From the IMG/VR virus record IMGVR_UViG_3300031949_001696: a stretch of DNA of 64,000 nucleotides; one strand, given 5' to 3'. The stretch is from a virus. Taxonomy: Duplodnaviria; Caudoviricetes. The notes beneath the pieces were generated by a model that saw nothing but the letters and a program-made list of their open reading frames with translations, had not been told where the DNA came from and ran no database searches. Positions within the stretch are counted from its first letter, which is position 1. Every line of letters begins with the position of its first letter. The position numbers and the translations under genes are program-made. Below are positions 25,101 through 43,926 of the stretch, one piece after another.

Positions 25101-25173
25101 GCTATCGTAGCTCAGCTGGCAGAGCACCTGACTTGTAATCAGGGGGTCCCGAGTTCGATTCTCGGTGGTAGCT
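25101..25173 (+). tRNA. tRNA-Thr(TGT)
   Basis: cctga-CTTGTAA-tcagg. Confidence 0.9.
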
Positions 25174-25183
25174 CGATGATCAT

Positions 25184-30445: not shown

Positions 30446-30519
30446 GCCTTCGAAGCCGCATTGGAAGCGGCACCGAGTTCCTACCTCGGAGGTTGCAGGT
30501 TCGAGTCCTGTCGAAGGCA
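30446..30519 (+). tRNA. tRNA-Arg(CCT)
   Basis: ccgag-TTCCTAC-ctcgg. Confidence 0.85.
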
Positions 30520-30527
30520 CGCCTCCT

Positions 30528-30629
30528 GCGGGCATGCGGCAATGGCGCCGCGCCGGTCAAGCTTTCGTCGTCCGAGCGATCGGGCTGTCGCGAGACCGTT
30601 ATCAGGTTCGATCCCAGATGCCCGCTCCA
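30528..30629 (+). ncRNA. tRNA-Gly-like RNA with the anticodon loop replaced by a ~35-nt structured segment
   Basis: gcgggca/tgcccgc-T-CCA acceptor, D and T arms, cggtc/gaccg stem. Confidence 0.6.
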
Positions 30630-30667
30630 TCATCTAGTCCATCTAGTGGTACCTCTCGCCGACGGAA

Positions 30668-30868
30668 ATGCTGACCATCAAGCTCTTCGGAGACAAGCAA
30701 GCTGAGAGGTTTGTCTGGTCGATCGCGGTCATGGACAGTCGCGGCATGCACCTCGTTACGGACGGTACCGCCGACTCGGCAGAAAACGCCAAGGCGGGGA
30801 TGCGCACTGCTCTCGGAAAGCTCGTCGAGAAGTTGGAATTCCGGCCCGTCGCACCCACCGACGACTGA
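30668..30868 (+). CDS. Small hypothetical protein
   Basis: ORF between tRNA genes. Confidence 0.4.
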   Translation: MLTIKLFGDKQAERFVWSIAVMDSRGMHLVTDGTADSAENAKAGMRTALGKLVEKLEFRPVAPTDD

Positions 30869-30902
30869 TCGTCGGCCAAGTTTCGTCATCGTTGTTCACA
30901 GC

Positions 30903-30970
30903 GCCTCCGCACGTGGACGTGACCCGAGTTTCCGAAACTCGGTGAGCTGGTTCGACTCCAGCCGGAGGTA
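30903..30970 (+). tRNA. tRNA-Arg(CCG), reduced D arm
   Basis: cgagt-TTCCGAA-actcg. Confidence 0.7.
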
Positions 30971-30977
30971 CTACTTT

Positions 30978-31024
30978 GTCGGCGTTTCACAACGGAGATG
31001 CGGGTTTGACTCCCGTCGCCGATA
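30978..31024 (+). pseudogene. Internally deleted tRNA remnant (Val-CAC-like loop, no D arm)
   Basis: gtcggcg/cgccgat acceptor and T arm only. Confidence 0.5.
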
Positions 31025-31091
31025 CGATCTCCACGCACTTGCATCCGAGTGCTTCTGATGTACAACGCGTGGCTTAACCAGGAGAACGCAC

Positions 31092-32750
31092 ATGTCGATC
31101 GACTATCTGATGGACGCCGTTGCGTCGCCGACGCAGCGAGAGAAGGCCGACCCTCGGCAGGTCATGAACAATGCAGGAGGCTACACGTTCGTCGTCGACG
31201 ACTGGGCACGCCTGCGCCGCTTCCTGGTGCTCGGCGCCGAGGGCGGCACGTACTATGCGTCCGAGAAGAAGCTCGCGCGCGAGAACGCCGCGTGCGTCGA
31301 GCGGCTGATCCAGCTCGATGGTCCACGCCTCGTTCGCGAGGTGGCCGAGCTGTCGGAGAGCGGTCGCGCGCCCAAGAACGATCCGGCGATCCTCGCGCTC
31401 GCGCTCGCCGCCAAGCTCGGCGACCTGCCGACCAAGCGGGCCGCGTACGCGGCGCTGCCGCGCGTCTGCCGCATCGGCACGCACCTCTACCACTTCGCCG
31501 CGTTCACGAGCGCAATCGCGGGTGGCGGCTGGGGCGCCGGCATGCGCCGCGCAATCGGCGACTGGTTCAACGCCCGATCGGTCGACGACACCGCGCACCA
31601 GGTCGTGAAGTACCAGTCGCGCGACGGCTGGTCGGCCAAGGACGTCCTTTGCCTCGCGCGTCCGAACCCGAAGAAGGCGTACCGCTTCGACAAGGAAGCA
31701 GGGCGTGTCGTCGCGGCCGACGACTTCGCCGCGCGCGACGCGCTCTACCGCTGGGTGACGTACGGCGTCGAGGGCCTCGACGTCGATCAGCGCGCGAAGC
31801 TGCCGGCGATCGTCGATGCGTTCGAGCAGCTCAAGGGCCTGACCGACGGCAAGAAGGTCGTCGCGCTGATCCGCGAGCACTCGCTGCCGCGCGAGGCCGT
31901 GCCGACGCAGCACCTGACGCTTCCCGAGGTATGGGAGGCGCTCCTGCCGCACATGGGCCTGTCCGCTCTCGTCCGTAACCTCGCGACGATGACGCGCGTC
32001 GGCGTGATCGCGCCGCTCGGCGCGCACGTGCCGGCGATCTGCGCGCGCCTCACGGATGCTGCGCAGCTCTCCAAGGCGCGCGTGCATCCGATCCAGATGC
32101 TGTCGGCGCTCAAGACGTATCAGCAGGGGCACGGCGCGCGCGGCAAGTCGACGTGGACTGCGGTCCAGCCGATCGTCGACGCGCTCGACGCAGGTTTCTA
32201 CGCGGCGTTCGCGACGGTCGAGCCGACGAACCAGGCGACGCTGATCGCGCTCGATGTCTCGGCGTCGATGTGCTCGGGCACGATCGCGGGCTGCCCTGGC
32301 CTGTCGCCGCGCGTGGCGTCGGCGGCGATGGCGCTCGTGACGGCGGCGCGCGAGCCGAACCACCACATCATGGGGTTCTCGGACACGCTCGTCGACGTGC
32401 CGATCTCGCCGAAGATGCGTCTCGATCAGGCGATCGCTGCGATCGATCGCGTTCGGATGGGCGGCACGGACTGTGCGCTGCCGATGGTCTGGGCCGAGAA
32501 GTCGAAGGCGAAGGTCGACGCGATCGCGATCTACACCGACAACGAGACGTGGGCCGGCCCGGGGCATCCGCACAAGGCGCTCCAGAGCTACCGCAAGAGC
32601 TCGGGGCGGCCGACCAAGCTCGCGGTTGTCGGCTTGACCGCGACGCAGTTCACGATCGCCGATCCGACGGACGCAGGCATGATGGACTTCGTCGGGTTCG
32701 ACGCGGCGGCGCCGCAACTCATGGCGGACTTCTTTCGCGAGGGAGCATGA
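31092..32750 (+). CDS. rsr: Ro60/TROVE-domain RNA-binding protein (Rsr) with vWA domain
   Basis: NNAGGY, RFLVLG.EGGTYY, KYQSRDGWS, ALVRNL, MIDAS DVSASM, GGTDC, TDNET, GFD; AGGAG RBS. Confidence 0.95.
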   Translation: MSIDYLMDAVASPTQREKADPRQVMNNAGGYTFVVDDWARLRRFLVLGAEGGTYYASEKKLARENAACVERLIQLDGPRLVREVAELSESGRAPKNDPAILALALAAKLGDLPTKRAAYAALPRVCRIGTHLYHFAAFTSAIAGGGWGAGMRRAIGDWFNARSVDDTAHQVVKYQSRDGWSAKDVLCLARPNPKKAYRFDKEAGRVVAADDFAARDALYRWVTYGVEGLDVDQRAKLPAIVDAFEQLKGLTDGKKVVALIREHSLPREAVPTQHLTLPEVWEALLPHMGLSALVRNLATMTRVGVIAPLGAHVPAICARLTDAAQLSKARVHPIQMLSALKTYQQGHGARGKSTWTAVQPIVDALDAGFYAAFATVEPTNQATLIALDVSASMCSGTIAGCPGLSPRVASAAMALVTAAREPNHHIMGFSDTLVDVPISPKMRLDQAIAAIDRVRMGGTDCALPMVWAEKSKAKVDAIAIYTDNETWAGPGHPHKALQSYRKSSGRPTKLAVVGLTATQFTIADPTDAGMMDFVGFDAAAPQLMADFFREGA

Positions 32751-32753
32751 CCC

Positions 32754-33617
32754 GTGGGGTATTTGCACATTGCCAACCTCTACAAGGAGCCTGATCTCCT
32801 TTTGTTCCGACGCTGCTACGCGCTCGAGAAGGTGCACGGCACTTCCGCTCATATCGCCTGGGGCCCCGCTGGAGTCACGTTCTTCTCCGGTGGTGAGTCT
32901 CACACGCGCTTCGTCGGGCTGTTCGACGCTGCCGCGCTGAAAGATCAGTTCAGCGCGCTGGGACACGCCGAGGTGACGATCTACGGTGAGGCGTACGGCG
33001 GCAGTCAGCAGGGCATGAGGCTCGTCTACGGCGCGGAGCTGCGCTTCATCGCGTTCGACGTGCAGGTGGGCTCGTGCTGGCTGTCTGTGAAGGATGCCGA
33101 GCAGGTATGCCAGGCGCTCGACATCGAGTTCGTGCCTTACGAAGAGATCGCGACCGAGCTGGTCGAGATCGATCGCGTGCGCGATCAGCCGTCAGCGGTG
33201 GCCGTGCGTCGCGGCACGGGAGCCGACAAGCCGCGCGAGGGAGTGGTCCTGCGCCCGCTCGTCGAGGTGACCAAGAACAACGGATCGCGCATCATTGCCA
33301 AGCACAAGGCCGACACGTTCGCCGAGCGTGCCACGCCACCCAAGGTGGTGGATGTGGCCAAGCTCGAAGTGCTGGCGGCGGCAGAGGCGATCGCGCAGGA
33401 GTGGGTGACGCCGATGCGCCTGACTCACGTGCTCGATAAGCTCGGCACGACCGACATCAGCGAGATGTCCAAGATCATTCACGCCATGGTCGAGGACGTG
33501 TTCCGCGAGGCCAAGGGCGAGATCGTCGAATCGAAGGATGCCCGGACAGCGATCGGCAAACGCACGGCGCGGCTATTCAAGGAGCGTCTTGACCAGGTGA
33601 TGCGCACCGCGGGCTGA
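32754..33617 (+). CDS. ATP-dependent RNA ligase, Rnl2-like
   Basis: Nucleotidyltransferase motifs EKVHG, YGE, FIAFDV, EGVV, AKHK. Confidence 0.8.
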   Translation: MGYLHIANLYKEPDLLLFRRCYALEKVHGTSAHIAWGPAGVTFFSGGESHTRFVGLFDAAALKDQFSALGHAEVTIYGEAYGGSQQGMRLVYGAELRFIAFDVQVGSCWLSVKDAEQVCQALDIEFVPYEEIATELVEIDRVRDQPSAVAVRRGTGADKPREGVVLRPLVEVTKNNGSRIIAKHKADTFAERATPPKVVDVAKLEVLAAAEAIAQEWVTPMRLTHVLDKLGTTDISEMSKIIHAMVEDVFREAKGEIVESKDARTAIGKRTARLFKERLDQVMRTAG

Positions 33618-33640
33618 GTCATCTGAAGTGCTACGATGGC

Positions 33641-33726
33641 TGCGCGTCGGGTTGTCCGCTGCGCGCGTTATCGTCGGCCTATTAAGCCGAAAGGAAGCCG
33701 CTCTCGCGACCTCTTCATCCGTCGCA
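33641..33726 (+). ncRNA. Y-RNA-like unit 1
   Basis: GTCGGGTTGT...CTCTTCATCCG terminal motif; internal tcggc-CTATTAA-gccga hairpin. Confidence 0.6.
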
Positions 33727-33763
33727 CCTTGACGTCACGATCGTCTTCGGGCAGGTTCTCTTC

Positions 33764-33825
33764 GTCGGGTTGTAGCGGCACTGTTCTCATCAACAGAAAA
33801 GCGGTGCCGCAGCTCTTCATCCGAC
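33764..33825 (+). ncRNA. Y-RNA-like unit 2
   Basis: GTCGGGTTGT..CTCTTCATCCGAC; gcggcactg/cggtgccgc stem. Confidence 0.65.
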
Positions 33826-33874
33826 ACCATTTCCGCCGTTGACGGTTCGTGCGTCTTCAGGCATCTTCTTCTTC

Positions 33875-33933
33875 GTCGGGTTGTAGTGGCAGTGTTCTCT
33901 GGTTGAAACCGCTGCCACGCCTCTTCATCCGAC
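33875..33933 (+). ncRNA. Y-RNA-like unit 3
   Basis: Same termini; gtggcagt/gctgccac stem. Confidence 0.65.
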
Positions 33934-33982
33934 TCTCTATTCGCCCTGGCGTTCCTTCGCGGATGTCAGGAGTTTCATTTTT

Positions 33983-34044
33983 GCCGGGTTGTCGCCGGAG
34001 TGTTCTCTCGAACAGAACCACGCTCCAGCACCCCTTCATCCGGC
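33983..34044 (+). ncRNA. Y-RNA-like unit 4
   Basis: GCCGGGTTGT..CTTCATCCGGC (covarying ends); gttct-CTCGAAC-agaac hairpin. Confidence 0.65.
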
Positions 34045-34075
34045 ACCATTCCCAGCAGCACTGTTCTCTCGTTTT

Positions 34076-34153
34076 GCCGGGTTGTCGCGAGATCGTTACC
34101 TGACTTGTAATCAGGCCCTCACGGGCTTCGCGGTCTTGCACTCTTCATCCGGC
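34076..34153 (+). ncRNA. Y-RNA-like unit 5 carrying a tRNA-Thr(TGT) anticodon arm
   Basis: Same termini; cctga-CTTGTAA-tcagg at 34099-34115. Confidence 0.7.
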
Positions 34154-34162
34154 GTCATTTTC

Positions 34163-34285
34163 GGCGGGTTGTAGATCCAGGGTTACCACGTAGGACATCG
34201 AGGTCGCGGGTTCGACTCCCGTCGTATCGGCGCGAGCCGATGAAGTGGAATGGTGTCATGTGGGGTCCTTGGCTGTCACGTCGTC
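34163..34285 (+). ncRNA. YrlA-type Y RNA with a tRNA-like T-arm module (unit 6)
   Basis: GGCGGGTTGT start; long stem (ccaggg/ccttgg, ccacgt/atgtgg, gacatc/ggtgtc) enclosing gcggg-TTCGACT-cccgt and a closed atcggc-gcga-gccgat hairpin. Confidence 0.7.
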
Positions 34286-34608
34286 ACTTTTCGCGCCGTC
34301 GACAGCAGGTACGACGGATAGCCCTTCTTCTTGTAGTACGCGTCGAAGGCGCGATCCTGCTCTTCCGCGGTCATGCCTGACTTGAGGCCGACGTCGGCGG
34401 CGAGCTTACGCGCCTCGGCCAAGCGGCGATCGCCTGCCTTGATCGATGGGCGAACAAGCGCGAGGTAGCCGACACCCAGAGCAGCGGCGCCGATCGCGAT
34501 CTTTACCCACGGTATGCCGGATGACCGCGGCGCTGATTGCAGCGCTGCTTGTGCCGGCTTGTTGACGCCGTTGCCGACGTACGATCGACCATATTCGCCG
34601 CGACCCAT
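34276..34608 (-). CDS. Small membrane-anchored protein
   Basis: MGRGEYGRSYVG N-terminus, one hydrophobic helix. Confidence 0.55.
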   Translation of the reverse strand: MGRGEYGRSYVGNGVNKPAQAALQSAPRSSGIPWVKIAIGAAALGVGYLALVRPSIKAGDRRLAEARKLAADVGLKSGMTAEEQDRAFDAYYKKKGYPSYLLSTARKVTT

Positions 34609-35026
34609 CTGGCAACGGTAGCACGGGCTTCGGAAGCCCCGAGCGCGGTATGCTCGTTCGCATGGACGGGCACACGCTCCTTGGCCACATCGCTCTCTGC
34701 TCGGAGGTCGTCGGCGACGGCGGTCCGCGCCACTACCGGCGCCGCGGCAAGCCACTGCCGGAGAAGTATCTGCCGGGGCGCTTTCTCGCGAGCATGCTTC
34801 CCGAGGCGCGCGCGGACATCGTGAGCGTGGTGAGCGCGCGGACATCACCAGCTCTGTGGTTTCTGCGGCTCGTCGTCGACGAGGAGGAGCCGATCGCGCG
34901 CCTACCGTCACCGCCGGTCGATCGGCGCTGGACCTGCCGCGGTCGGTGGTCGACACCGCCGACGTCGGCCCCGTGCAAGATAGCCAGCAGGTGAAACGCT
35001 CGAACGTTTCGGCGTAGAATCGAGTC

Positions 35027-35422
35027 ATGTCGCAAGCAGGCTCCAGGGGCGCAAGGAAGAAGAGTCCTGCGCAGCTCGACCGCGAGATCGCCGAGACGCT
35101 GCACGGCAAGTCGAAGAGCGGGCCTACCTATCTCTATGTTGAAGGCGTCGGACATCGCCTTCCGCATGGCTACGAGATCCACTGGAATTGGATCGCTCGT
35201 CGCGACGGTAAGAAGATCGACGGCGGGGCACTCACGGGGGGCGATCTTCCCGAGTTCTACGAGACGTGGCCTGATGCCCGTGGAGTAGCGGCTATCGTCG
35301 AGCAGATGACGAAGATCTTGCGAGAGTGGATTCCGTCTGGCGAGTTCGGTCGCGATCTCTCATCGAAGGTCAGCGTATCGCTCAGGAAATCGAGCAGCGA
35401 AGTGCCGATCCGGGGACGTTAG
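35027..35422 (+). CDS. Hypothetical protein with N-terminal [11 protein letters not shown] tag
   Basis: [15 protein letters not shown]; TAGAAT 6 nt before ATG. Confidence 0.6.
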   Translation: MSQAGSRGARKKSPAQLDREIAETLHGKSKSGPTYLYVEGVGHRLPHGYEIHWNWIARRDGKKIDGGALTGGDLPEFYETWPDARGVAAIVEQMTKILREWIPSGEFGRDLSSKVSVSLRKSSSEVPIRGR

Positions 35423-35456
35423 CGGGTTCCGAGGCAGCGCGTAGCACTCATGGCGC

Positions 35457-36128
35457 TTACGACAGGAACCGCTCCTCGGAGACGATCTCGGCGTCGATCA
35501 CGTCGAGGTGCGCGCTGCGCCACACGGGCGCAACGAGCGCTTGGCTGGAAGCGCGACGAGCGGCGGGACGGCGATCCGTCGTGACAGTCGGCGTGCGGTG
35601 CGGCGCGGGGGCCTCGACCGCCGCGCTGGTGCGGCTACGCGCACGGGTCGCGACGCGCCGCGCGTCCGCCTCGCGGCGCTTGTTCGTCGCGTCGCGCGCG
35701 AGCGCGATCACCGATCCGTTCGCGACTGCGTTGATCAGGATCAAGACTGCGAGCGCGATCGCACTCACCGCGCCCGTGGCCACCAGCATCACGCCCTCCA
35801 GGGCGAGTACGAAGCCGAGGGCCTTGCGCGAGTCGCCGAACGCCGCCTTGCCGAACTTGTAGACCGAGATCGCCGAGAAGCACGCACAGCCGAGCACGAC
35901 CGCGACCATCACCATCGCGAGTGACGTGTTCCCAGCGGACCAGGCTGCCGGGACCTGATCGTGGGCGAGGGTACGGCCGAACCACGGGACGAGGCCGCCG
36001 ATCAGGGCACCGATCAGCGCGGCGTGAGGATTGCGGATGGCGCATTCGAGCTGCGTGACGACGTCGGTGGTGGCCGACCGATCGACGACCTTGCGGGACC
36101 GCTTGCTACGCTTGCTGGCCTTGCTCAT
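35457..36128 (-). CDS. Multi-pass membrane protein with basic tails
   Basis: About four hydrophobic helices. Confidence 0.6.
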   Translation of the reverse strand: MSKASKRSKRSRKVVDRSATTDVVTQLECAIRNPHAALIGALIGGLVPWFGRTLAHDQVPAAWSAGNTSLAMVMVAVVLGCACFSAISVYKFGKAAFGDSRKALGFVLALEGVMLVATGAVSAIALAVLILINAVANGSVIALARDATNKRREADARRVATRARSRTSAAVEAPAPHRTPTVTTDRRPAARRASSQALVAPVWRSAHLDVIDAEIVSEERFLS

Positions 36129-38808: not shown

Positions 38809-38883
38809 GCCGGCATAGCCCAACGGAGAGAGGCCGCGCACCTAAAATGCGCTCCAGTGCGCGTTCGACTCGCGCTGTCGGCA
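38809..38883 (+). tRNA. tRNA-Leu(TAA) with short variable region
   Basis: gcgca-CCTAAAA-tgcgc (C33), A73. Confidence 0.75.
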
Positions 38884-43634: not shown

Positions 43635-43704
43635 GCGCGCCCGCGAGGCGCGCGATAGTGAGGTCCAAGCTCGTCACGTTTTTACTGTACCAGTTTCGAT
43701 TGAG

Positions 43705-43780
43705 AGAGCCCGGCGGGAGTCGAACCCGCGACCAACGATTTCATCACTTCGCTGCTCTAACCAACCTGAGCTACGGGCCC
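43705..43780 (-). tRNA. tRNA-Ile-like gene with aberrant ~10-nt anticodon loop
   Basis: gggcccg-tagctcaggttggttagagc, canonical T arm; loop AGTGATGAAA. Confidence 0.6.
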
Positions 43781-43852
43781 GAACGGGTCGCGCTTCGCCA
43801 CGTCTGAGGTGGCGACGAAGGCGATGGATTCCGAGCCCACCACAAGCGCTAG

Positions 43853-43926
43853 CGGATCCCACCGGAGTCGAACCGGCCATGGCGAGGTCATTATTCTCGC
43901 TGCTTCTCCTCGAAGACTTGAGATCC
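43853..43926 (-). ncRNA. tRNA-like gene with 9-nt anticodon loop
   Basis: ggatctc/gggatcc acceptor; gcgag-AATAATGAC-ctcgc; T arm. Confidence 0.55.

What the first reader, a model, noticed from the sequence alone, without database searches (positions are those of the whole stretch)
31092..34285. Candidate new system: Ro60 + Rnl2-type RNA ligase + tandem array of six Y-RNA-like units
Seen: Ro60/TROVE is followed 3 nt later by an ATP-dependent RNA ligase, then by a ~650-bp non-coding tract. Six units begin with G[TCG]CGGGTTGT (33646, 33764, 33875, 33983, 34076, 34163), and five end with CTTCATCCG. The two ends base-pair and covary (GTCGG/CCGAC in units 2-3, GCCGG/CCGGC in units 4-5) around a constant TGT/CTTC internal loop, while the inner stems differ in sequence. 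Pyrimidine-rich spacers separate the units. Known: bacterial Ro60 (Rsr) binds Y RNAs through a terminal helix, is usually encoded next to one or two Y RNAs and often near the RtcB ligase. Inference: a virus-encoded Ro60 RNP family with one constant Ro-binding handle and six interchangeable payloads, paired with an Rnl2-type rather than RtcB ligase, acting in tRNA protection or repair.
Basis: partly seen in the sequence, partly recalled or inferred. Interest (0 to 1): 0.95.

Follow-up and report, generated by a model that had tools for sequence, protein, structure and literature searches.

The report
Phage Ro60 with six-gene Y-RNA array
A huge soil phage carries, right after its Ro60 RNA-binding protein gene, a row of six small RNA genes that share one conserved docking stem but carry different tips, one tip being an exact copy of a tRNA anticodon arm; this enlarges a known kind of system rather than founding a new one.

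Summary
All six CGGGTTGT words in the 64-kb window lie at 33648-34172, and five CTTCATCCG words close units 1-5.

The units fold as a 7-bp terminal helix (GNCGGGU/AUCCGNC), an asymmetric pyrimidine-rich internal loop and a variable inner hairpin.

The same array follows Ro60 in all 12 related metagenomic contigs I fetched (Ro60 62-84% identical). It contains recognisable orthologous unit types. Across 43 distinct sequences the two helices are 97% paired, and 13 of 16 pairs show compensatory changes.

In relatives the last, long unit is a YrlA-type Y RNA with the same handle: Rfam YrlA scores 38.6 bits, like known phage YrlAs. The short units are therefore best read as YrlB-like Y RNAs.

In the window itself unit 6 is a degenerate YrlA (D arm lost, 3' handle altered) and unit 1 has a damaged second stem.

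Two findings are new here:
- A conserved promoter-like element (TTGAC, about 18 nt, CATCYT/TANNNT) sits 35-37 nt before the leading units.
- Unit 5 carries an 18/18 copy of the phage tRNA-Thr(UGU) anticodon arm.

The ligase is Rnl2-like but accessory, adjacent to Ro60 in only 4 of 13 loci. Phage Ro60 with Y RNAs is already published, so this is a new variant of a known kind. Ro60 binding, expression and function remain untested.

The parts
31092..32750 (+). Ro60/Rsr orthologue (552 aa; TROVE ring + vWA domain)
   Evidence: Pfam PF05731 1.6e-42 and PF25045 1.7e-60. NCBIfam Rsr 530 bits, below its cut-off of 900. PHROG 850. Relatives at 62-84% identity sit on contigs up to 291 kb.
32754..33617 (+). 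Rnl2-like ATP-dependent RNA ligase (287 aa), an accessory neighbour of Ro60
   Evidence: PF09414 2.9e-12. TIGR02307 Rnl2 1.4e-12, below its cut-off. T4 Rnl2 2HVQ 1e-4, covering motif IV, motif V and the C-terminal domain. PHROG 548 5e-26. Motifs EKVHGT, EGVVLRP and IAKHK read. T4-like RnlB at 24-28% identity over 90% of the length. Orthologues at 91% (L162) and 83% (L169) identity, and one in L172.
33646..33723 (+). Unit 1 (type A): handle plus a 5-bp hairpin with the 7-nt loop CUAUUAA; second stem damaged in this window
   Evidence: Model R1 gives 21.4 bits, E 0.006. Fold z -0.35. Intact orthologues are L165 5638-5714 and L173 5795-5876.
33729..33763 (+). Promoter-like element before unit 2 (TTGAC, 18 nt, CAGGTT, 6 nt, then the first G of the unit)
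   Evidence: TTGAC lies 35-37 nt upstream of 17 of 19 leading units in 12 loci plus the window. Its function is inferred.
33764..33825 (+). Unit 2 (type B): short Y RNA, a long hairpin with the pyrimidine-rich loop UGUUCUC
   Evidence: Fold z -4.8. R1 79 bits. Orthologues in 10 loci.
33839..33874 (+). Promoter-like element before unit 3 (TTGAC, 18 nt, CATCTT, 7 nt)
   Evidence: Its function is inferred.
33875..33933 (+). Unit 3 (type C): short Y RNA
   Evidence: Fold z -3.5. R1 79.4 bits.
33945..33982 (+). Terminator-like hairpin plus T run between units 3 and 4
   Evidence: Consensus scan only; 4 such sites found against 2.6 expected, so weak evidence.
33983..34044 (+). Unit 4 (type D): short Y RNA
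   Evidence: Fold z -2.7. R1 68.6 bits.
34076..34153 (+). Unit 5 (type E): handle, a 10-bp stem and a three-way junction carrying an anticodon-arm copy (34098-34115) and a small hairpin
   Evidence: Fold z -3.2. R1 39.6 bits. The 18/18 identity to tRNA-Thr(UGU) at 25126-25143 is the only match longer than 13 nt between the array and the rest of the window. The arm is invariant in 7 loci; L168 has U34C.
34163..34299 (+). Unit 6 (type F): degenerate YrlA. The 5' handle, V region, T arm and GNRA 'acceptor' hairpin are kept; the D arm is lost, there is a 10-nt insertion and the 3' handle is altered
   Evidence: Alignment A2 with six orthologues. The orthologue L165 6276-6391 hits Rfam YrlA at 38.6 bits, E 8e-7. 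No YrlA hit in the window.
25101..25174 (+). Phage tRNA-Thr(UGU) gene, whose anticodon arm is copied in unit 5
   Evidence: ARAGORN; sequence.

Best explanation
The 650-bp tract is a cluster of Y-RNA genes serving the adjacent phage Ro60.

Each unit is a small RNA whose 5' and 3' ends form a 7-bp helix (GNCGGGU/AUCCGNC), followed by an asymmetric internal loop (UGU on one side, C/U-rich on the other). This handle is a diverged version of the canonical bacterial Ro60-binding helix (GNCGAA), and Ro60 is inferred to dock on it.

The inner parts differ by unit type:
- Units 2-4 are long hairpins with a pyrimidine-rich loop, like YrlB/Yrn2.
- Units 1 and 5 display anticodon-arm-shaped hairpins; unit 5's is an exact copy of the tRNA-Thr(UGU) arm.
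- The last unit is a YrlA tRNA-elbow mimic, intact in relatives and decayed here.

The leading units appear to have their own sigma-A-type promoters that start transcription at the first G of the handle. The following units are separated only by 8-16 nt U-rich spacers, so they are probably co-transcribed and then trimmed, or terminated, at the U runs.

By analogy with characterised Ro60-Y RNPs, the handles load Ro60 and the payloads tether it to different partners (PNPase, tRNA-binding enzymes). This would shape RNA decay or protect the phage's large tRNA set during infection. The Rnl2-like ligase is an optional add-on that could reseal nicked, duplex-held RNAs.

Shown here: the repeat anatomy, helix covariation, conservation next to Ro60, YrlA identity of the terminal unit in relatives, the anticodon-arm identity, and conservation of the promoter-like element. 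Inferred: transcription, processing, Ro60 binding, partners and biological role.
For: - Motif clustering is far above chance, and units 2-5 are thermodynamically stable.
- Covariation in 19 short units from 9 loci: 98.7% of cells paired, 7 of 16 pairs with compensatory changes, sliding controls 29-51%.
- Covariation in 43 distinct model matches: 97.4% paired, 13 of 16 pairs compensatory, 5 of 7 of them in the terminal helix (UA/CG/GC at pair 2, CG/UA at 3, GC/AU at 5, UA/CG at 7), slides 32-45%.
- Model R1 finds + strand matches in the window only in the array. It also finds matches directly beside Ro60 in all 12 close relatives and in IMG/VR loci L006, L044 and L009.
- The terminal long unit of relatives shares the handle and matches Rfam YrlA at 38.6 bits. 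Known phage YrlAs score the same: ET08 37.4, Cashline 42.2, L007 43.
- Handle variants GNCGAGC/GUUCGNC in L169, L170 and L044 bridge to the published GNCGAA motif (PMC4201824).
- Multi-Y, polycistronic loci and hairpins with pyrimidine-rich loops are described for Deinococcus, Salmonella and M. smegmatis (PMC4201824).
- Phage Ro60 binds two phage Yrls and host PNPase in vitro (PMC12135203).
- TTGAC sits at a fixed 35-37 nt in 17 of 19 leading units.
- The anticodon arm is identical over 18/18 nt and invariant across loci whose Ro60 differs by 16-27%.
Against: - There is no direct evidence of transcription, processing or Ro60 binding.
- The window's handle lacks the published GNCGAA motif (it reads GNCGGG).
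- Units are 59-78 nt, shorter than the 80-130 nt of characterised Y RNAs.
- No unit of the window reaches any Rfam Y-RNA model, even at E 10. In relatives the YrlA match is below the family's gathering score (38.6 against 69).
- Units 1 and 6 are degenerate here, so the full set may not be functional in this phage.
- Related sequences share ancestry, so the shuffle controls overstate significance; the sliding control is the fairer one.
Confidence: 0.8

Rival explanations
1. The units are small structured RNAs that act without Ro60, for example tRNA-anticodon decoys or sponges against host tRNA-cleaving defence nucleases. They lie beside Ro60 only because this genome region collects tRNA-related genes.
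For: - Unit 5 copies the tRNA-Thr(UGU) anticodon arm exactly, and that arm is under strong sequence constraint.
- Type A units show anticodon-arm-shaped hairpins.
- The locus sits in a tRNA-rich region, with 25 tRNA genes upstream in the window.
Against: - The same handle closes a YrlA-type RNA in relatives.
- The array follows Ro60 in 13 of 13 clade loci, even though the flanks differ through ligase, endonuclease VII, SNase-like ORF or IS1595 insertions.
- A constant handle shared by otherwise unrelated payloads implies a common binding partner.
- Decoy action and Ro60 binding are not mutually exclusive.
Confidence: 0.1
2. The tract consists of decayed tRNA or Y-RNA gene remnants and repeat debris with no present function.
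For: - Units 1 and 6 of the window are degenerate.
- An orphan half-payload lies in the spacer at 34058-34073.
- Truncated tRNA-like pieces lie upstream of Ro60.
Against: - Units 2-5 keep perfect helices.
- Compensatory changes and orthologous unit types persist across loci whose Ro60 differs by up to 38%.
- Promoter-like elements are kept at a fixed distance.
Confidence: 0.04
3. The hairpins are cis-acting elements of the Ro60-ligase mRNA (3' stabilisers, terminators or processing sites), not independent RNA genes.
For: - The array is on the same strand, directly downstream of the coding genes.
- U-rich runs follow each unit.
- One terminator-like site was found.
Against: - Six differing units with one conserved closing helix are not what a terminator needs.
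- Internal promoter-like elements precede units 2 and 3.
- In L162, L165, L166 and L172 the array is separated from Ro60 by ORFs or up to 2.6 kb, yet it is kept.
Confidence: 0.04

Closest known systems
Bacterial Ro60 (Rsr) loci with YrlA/YrlB or Yrn1/Yrn2 (Salmonella rsr-yrlBA-rtcBA, M. smegmatis, D. radiodurans; PMC4201824)
   Same: - Several Y RNAs lie on the same strand within a few kb of Ro60.
[quoted passage not shown]
- The termini pair into the Ro60-binding stem.
- Expression is polycistronic.
- An RNA ligase is a neighbour in some loci.
   Different: - There are five to six units instead of two to five.
- The handle reads GNCGGGU/AUCCGNC instead of GNCGAA.
- The short units are 59-78 nt.
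- Two unit types display anticodon-arm hairpins.
- The ligase is ATP-dependent and Rnl2-like, not RtcB; no RtcA or RtcR lies nearby.
- The array lies downstream of Ro60 and carries its own promoter-like elements.
Phage Ro60 with Y-like RNAs: mycobacteriophage ET08/Bxz1-type YrlA (PMC4201824) and Thermus phage phiLo phiRo60 with Yrl1/Yrl2 (PMC12135203)
   Same: The Ro60 is virus-encoded and Y RNAs are encoded beside it. ET08 and Cashline YrlAs score 37-42 bits against Rfam YrlA, like the terminal unit of this clade.
   Different: Known cases have one or two Y RNAs upstream of Ro60 with the CGAA motif. Here there is a downstream array of up to six with a different handle, on a phage contig of about 333 kb whose Ro60 is at most 46% identical to any isolate phage's.
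T4 RNA ligase 2 (Rnl2/RnlB)
   Same: Nucleotidyltransferase motifs I, IV and V are present. The C-terminal domain aligns to T4 Rnl2 residues 203-317. T4-like RnlB proteins match over 90% of the length.
   Different: - Identity is only 24-28%, and the protein is 287 aa against 334.
- It scores below the TIGR02307 cut-off.
- It is placed directly after Ro60.
- Its closest isolate-collection homologue (56%, in a 485-kb uncultured phage) has no Ro60 or Y unit nearby.
tRNA mimicry by Y RNAs (the YrlA tRNA-like domain; the Yrn1 'anticodon arm' with a 6-nt loop, PMC4201824)
   Same: Y RNA payloads imitate parts of tRNA.
   Different: Here a separate short Y RNA carries a canonical 5-bp stem with a 7-nt loop that is identical over 18 nt to a co-encoded tRNA-Thr(UGU). 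The known YrlA mimic covers the elbow and acceptor part instead.

Membership tests
Bacterial/phage Y RNA (Ro60-associated ncRNA; YrlA/YrlB class) | Encoded within about 4 kb of a Ro60 orthologue, on the same strand | tested here: met
   The array starts 29 nt after the ligase and 896 nt after Ro60, on the + strand. The same holds in 12 of 12 relatives.
Bacterial/phage Y RNA (Ro60-associated ncRNA; YrlA/YrlB class) | [quoted passage not shown] | tested here: met
   7-bp helix, 98.6-100% paired, 5 of 7 pairs with compensatory changes; sliding controls collapse.
Bacterial/phage Y RNA (Ro60-associated ncRNA; YrlA/YrlB class) | GNCGAAN0-1G motif near the 5' end (proposed Ro60 contact) | tested here: not met
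   The window units read G[UCG]CGGGUUG. Relatives L169, L170 and L044 read GNCGAGCCG. The A-to-G change is compensated on the 3' strand, so the helix looks homologous, but the literal motif is absent.
Bacterial/phage Y RNA (Ro60-associated ncRNA; YrlA/YrlB class) | At least one RNA of the locus has a tRNA-like module (T arm, acceptor-like hairpin, D arm) | tested here: inconclusive
   Met in relatives (L165 at 38.6 bits to RF02553; canonical D arm in six orthologues). In the window, unit 6 keeps the T arm and GNRA hairpin but has lost the D arm.
Bacterial/phage Y RNA (Ro60-associated ncRNA; YrlA/YrlB class) | Reaches the Rfam YrlA (RF02553) gathering score of 69 bits | tested here: not met
   No hit in the window at E up to 10; 38.6 bits in L165. 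Published phage YrlAs also fail this cut-off (37-43 bits).
Bacterial/phage Y RNA (Ro60-associated ncRNA; YrlA/YrlB class) | Bound and stabilised by Ro60 in vivo | not testable with these tools
   Needs co-immunoprecipitation or EMSA.
Rnl2 family of ATP-dependent RNA ligases | Covalent nucleotidyltransferase motifs with the motif I lysine, plus motifs IV and V | tested here: met
   EKVHGT (K26), EGVVLRP and IAKHK read in the translation. PF09414 2.9e-12.
Rnl2 family of ATP-dependent RNA ligases | Rnl2-specific C-terminal domain | tested here: met
   phmmer aligns residues 160-270 to T4 Rnl2 203-317 (E 1e-4). The match is weak but covers the domain.
Rnl2 family of ATP-dependent RNA ligases | Scores above the TIGR02307 equivalog cut-off | tested here: not met
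   47.8 bits against a cut-off of 197, so this is a divergent member or sister group.
rsr-yrlBA-rtcBA RNA repair operon | RtcB ligase, RtcA cyclase and the RtcR regulator linked to rsr | tested here: not met
   Pfam scans of the neighbouring ORFs show none. The called genes of the 12 relatives list no RtcB or RtcA.
Ro60/Rsr | TROVE HEAT-repeat ring plus a vWA domain | tested here: met
   PF05731 and PF25045 cover residues 25-547.

The most novel reading that the evidence does not exclude
Some Y RNAs of this phage clade act as Ro60-mounted displays of tRNA anticodon arms: an exact tRNA-Thr(UGU) arm in unit E and variable 'anticodons' in unit A. They would capture, titrate or report host proteins that attack or modify tRNA anticodon loops, such as anticodon nucleases of defence systems. 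The optional Rnl2-like ligase would reseal the nicked arms. On this reading the array is a modular counter-defence that guards the phage's own tRNA pool.
Probability: 0.2. Interest if true: 0.85.

Novelty: new variant of a known kind. Interest (0 to 1): 0.58.

Why it matters
What Ro60-Y RNA particles do in bacteria and phages is still largely open. This clade offers an unusually readable case for four reasons:
- One protein is served by up to six RNAs that share a docking stem but carry distinct, conserved payloads.
- The handle differs from the published motif, which widens the search space for Y RNAs. The published searches were built on YrlA-like sequences and the tRNA-like module, so I would expect them to miss short units like these.
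- The exact anticodon-arm copy points to a concrete and testable class of partners, namely proteins that recognise the tRNA-Thr anticodon loop.
- Similar unannotated multi-unit arrays appear next to Ro60 in other phage groups (L007, the L018 group), so Y-RNA arrays may be a general feature of tRNA-rich phages.

Tried and rejected
- **Rfam on the window.** Searches of 30500-35500 and 33620-34320 at E up to 10 gave only chance-level hits and no Y RNA or YrlA.
- **blastn of the array** against 50,697 phage records: no match.
- **Exact pattern scan of IMG/VR** for the two handle words: more than 112 single matches, none of them arrays, about what chance gives for 17 specified bases. One (L101) lies on the same contig as Ro60 locus L010 but does not overlap it. 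Not pursued.
- **The window's own genome, and the full records behind the relatives,** are not held. I therefore could not ask whether ligase-less relatives carry the ligase elsewhere.
- **Public sequencing runs:** no RNA holder listed. The only full holder is a soil metagenome that may be the source of this DNA.
- **tblastn of the ligase** against 48 other phage and IMG/VR Ro60 loci: no hit.
- **The best isolate-collection ligase homologue** (56%, LR745208) has no Ro60 or Y unit nearby.
- **A strict promoter word search** (TTGAC N16-19 CAYYYT) finds only the unit 3 site in the window, so the element is not a general promoter motif of this region.
- **The 11-nt match of unit 1 to tRNA-Ile(UAU)** is at chance level, since many 11-mers match, and was rejected as evidence of mimicry.
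- **Rfam at gathering threshold on ten relatives** returned only tRNAs.
- **Two review papers** on bacterial Y RNAs were not held.


Full report
**What is there**

The window is a 63% GC, tRNA-rich stretch (31 ARAGORN calls) of a metagenomic contig of 332,853 bp. No whole genome is held for it. Other notes of this scan call it a huge soil phage; I did not verify that.

ORF 31092-32750(+) is a full Ro60/Rsr orthologue with TROVE and vWA_Ro60 domains. Three nucleotides later, ORF 32754-33617(+) is an ATP-dependent RNA ligase (PF09414). The next 658 bp, up to the stop codon of a convergent orphan ORF (34276-35109, no family match), hold the repeats.

**Checking the observation**

All six CGGGTTGT words of the 64-kb window fall at 33648-34172 on the + strand (1.7 expected in the whole window). 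Five of the seven CTTCATCCG words close units 1-5 (0.7 expected).

Units 2-5 fold with their ends paired into a 7-bp helix (GYCGGGU with AUCCGRC). Next comes an asymmetric internal loop (UGU[A/C] opposite a C/U-rich strand), then an inner stem. Their z-scores are -2.7 to -4.8. Units 1 and 6 do not fold significantly better than shuffles.

**Is it conserved?**

Isolate phages and IMG/VR hold only distant Ro60s: at most 46% and 50% identity over the full length, plus partial matches of 52% and 86%. The array has no blastn match among phage records.

The large protein collection, however, holds about 40 Ro60s at 59-84% identity, several on contigs of 160-291 kb. I fetched twelve of these loci. 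All share the same layout: tRNA arrays and an HNH gene upstream of Ro60. Every one has units with the same handle just downstream of Ro60.

The units fall into orthologous types.
- Type A (window unit 1) has an anticodon-arm-shaped hairpin.
- Types B, C and D (units 2-4) have a long hairpin with a conserved UGUUCUC loop.
- Type E is unit 5.
- Type F is a long unit of about 131 nt at the end of the array (unit 6 in the window).

**Structure test**

On 19 short units from nine loci, my two-helix structure is 98.7% paired. Seven of 16 pairs show changes on both sides. Sliding the partners by 1-3 columns drops pairing to 29-51%.

A covariance model built from these units (R1) finds + strand matches in the window only in units 1-5, and it finds units in all the relatives. 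It also finds units next to Ro60 in IMG/VR loci L006 (Ro60 48% identical), L044 and L009.

On the 43 distinct matches, 97.4% of cells pair and 13 of 16 pairs have compensatory changes. In the terminal helix these are UA/CG/GC at pair 2, CG/UA at pair 3, GC/AU at pair 5 and UA/CG at pair 7. The sequences are related, and this alignment was fitted to the model, so the shuffle figures are generous. The sliding control and the first MAFFT-based count are the sounder evidence.

**Why Y RNAs?**

Published work places YrlA-type Y RNAs within 4 kb of Ro60, on the same strand, in 254 bacteria and 22 phages. [quoted passage not shown] A Thermus phage Ro60 binds two phage-encoded Yrls and host PNPase in vitro (PMC12135203).

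In this clade the type F unit of relatives has four features:
- the common handle;
- a T arm;
- a GNRA-capped 'acceptor' hairpin;
- a canonical D arm (alignment A2).

L165 6276-6391 matches Rfam YrlA at 38.6 bits, E 8e-7. That is the level reached by the known phage YrlAs of ET08 (37.4) and Cashline (42.2). All of these lie below the family's gathering score of 69.

So the handle shared by all units is the closing helix of a YrlA. Its variants in L169, L170 and L044 (GNCGAGC with GUUCGNC) connect it by compensatory changes to the published GNCGAA motif. The literal motif is absent from the window.

**State of the window's own copies**

Unit 6 is the orthologue of type F. It has lost the 5' half of the D arm, carries a 10-nt insertion, and its 3' handle reads UUUUCGCGCCGUC instead of UUUUCAUCCGUC. 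It also runs into the orphan ORF, which has no counterpart in the relatives. This explains the missing Rfam hit.

L172 also has a type F unit without a D arm.

Unit 1 keeps the handle and apical hairpin, but its second stem no longer pairs well (21 bits). Units 2-5 look intact.

**New details**

1. TTGAC lies 35-37 nt before the first G of 17 of 19 leading units, in the window and 12 other loci. About 18 nt later comes CATCYT (or TANNNT in the more distant loci), with 6-7 nt left to the unit (TTGAC background 7.6e-4 per base). This looks like a sigma-A-type promoter that starts transcription at the base of the handle. The later units follow after only 8-16 nt U-rich spacers. That fits co-transcription with trimming, or termination at the U runs. 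Both are inferences.

2. Unit 5 contains an 18/18 copy (34098-34115) of position 26 plus the anticodon stem-loop of the phage's own tRNA-Thr(UGU) at 25126-25143. This is the only array match longer than 13 nt elsewhere in the window. The arm is invariant in seven loci whose Ro60s differ by 16-27%, and L168 has only the wobble change U34C, which still reads as a Thr anticodon. The neighbouring small hairpin and stems, by contrast, change with compensation. That pattern indicates sequence-specific constraint on the arm.

3. Type A hairpins have 5-bp stems and 7-nt loops of the form CU-NNN-(A/U)A, with differing middle triplets.

**The ligase**

It has motifs I (EKVHGT), IV (EGVVLRP) and V (IAKHK). 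It aligns to T4 Rnl2, including the C-terminal domain. It matches T4-like RnlB proteins at 24-28% over 90% of its length, and it hits TIGR02307 below the cut-off. I read it as a divergent Rnl2-type ligase.

It directly follows Ro60 in the window, L162 (91% identical), L169 (83%) and L172. It is absent from the other nine clade loci and from 48 other phage Ro60 loci. Its best isolate-collection homologue (56%) sits in a 485-kb uncultured phage without Ro60 nearby. It is therefore an accessory neighbour, not a fixed component.

Comparative work on jumbo phages has already discussed TROVE proteins among the RNA-repair genes that include ligases (PMC7824862).

**Context in other phages**

L007 has four short units plus a YrlA (43 bits), all with the canonical GGGCCGAAGG handle, just upstream of Ro60. 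A group of phage contigs of about 130 kb (L018, L020, L023, L035, L039) has five GGGUCGGA-type units among tRNA genes. Multi-unit Y-RNA arrays thus seem common next to phage Ro60. I found no paper that describes them; the library is incomplete, and two relevant reviews were not held.

**Verdict**

The Y-RNA reading is well supported by comparative evidence. The 'new system' claim is not supported.

This is a new variant of the known Ro60-Y RNA kind. What sets it apart is its size (up to six units), its non-canonical handle, its own promoter-like elements and its anticodon-arm payloads. Transcription, Ro60 binding and biological role remain untested. No RNA data were available.

Noticed in passing
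window 30903-30975 (+) and 30980-31027 (+): Two tRNA-like elements just upstream of Ro60 that ARAGORN did not call. One is a cloverleaf-like sequence with a 9-nt 'anticodon' loop (UUUCCGAAA) and a good T arm. The other is a 48-nt acceptor-plus-T-arm minihelix. Relatives have a full tRNA at this position.
   Followed up: partly
window 43704-43780 (-), 38809-38883 (+), 43852-43926 (-): Unusual ARAGORN calls: a tRNA with a 4-nt anticodon (gatg), and tRNAs with A34 anticodons, Phe(aaa) and Ile(aat).
   Followed up: no
window 33729-33763 and 33839-33874; same positions in L161-L170, L172, L173, L044: A conserved promoter-like element (TTGAC, about 18 nt, CATCYT or TANNNT) sits at a fixed 35-37 nt before the leading Y-RNA units. 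It was not found elsewhere in the window with a strict pattern.
   Followed up: yes
window 34058-34073: The spacer between units 4 and 5 holds GCACTGTTCTCTCGTT, an orphan 5' half of a B/C/D-type payload. It is probably the remnant of a deleted unit.
   Followed up: no
window 34276-35109 (-): A convergent 277-aa ORF with no Pfam, NCBIfam or PHROG match and no homologue in the flanks of the ten clade loci fetched by then (L161-L170). Its stop codon overlaps the degenerate 3' end of unit 6.
   Followed up: partly
L007 3387-3981: An IMG/VR phage contig with four short Y RNAs plus one YrlA (43 bits to RF02553) directly upstream of Ro60. All share the canonical GGGCCGAAGG / CACUUGCUC handle with a bulged C.
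   Followed up: partly
L018 1975-3290 (also L020, L023, L035, L039): Phage contigs of about 130 kb with five GGGUCGGA...AUAUCCG units interleaved with tRNA genes upstream of Ro60. Three of the units carry T arms. The handle resembles the window's.
   Followed up: partly
L172 6585-7604: An IS1595-family transposase is inserted between the ligase and the Y-RNA array. The array is intact beyond it, and its type F unit lacks a D arm, like the window's.
   Followed up: no
L162 8639-8797: A second YrlA-like unit with the same handle lies about 1.3 kb downstream of the main array.
   Followed up: no
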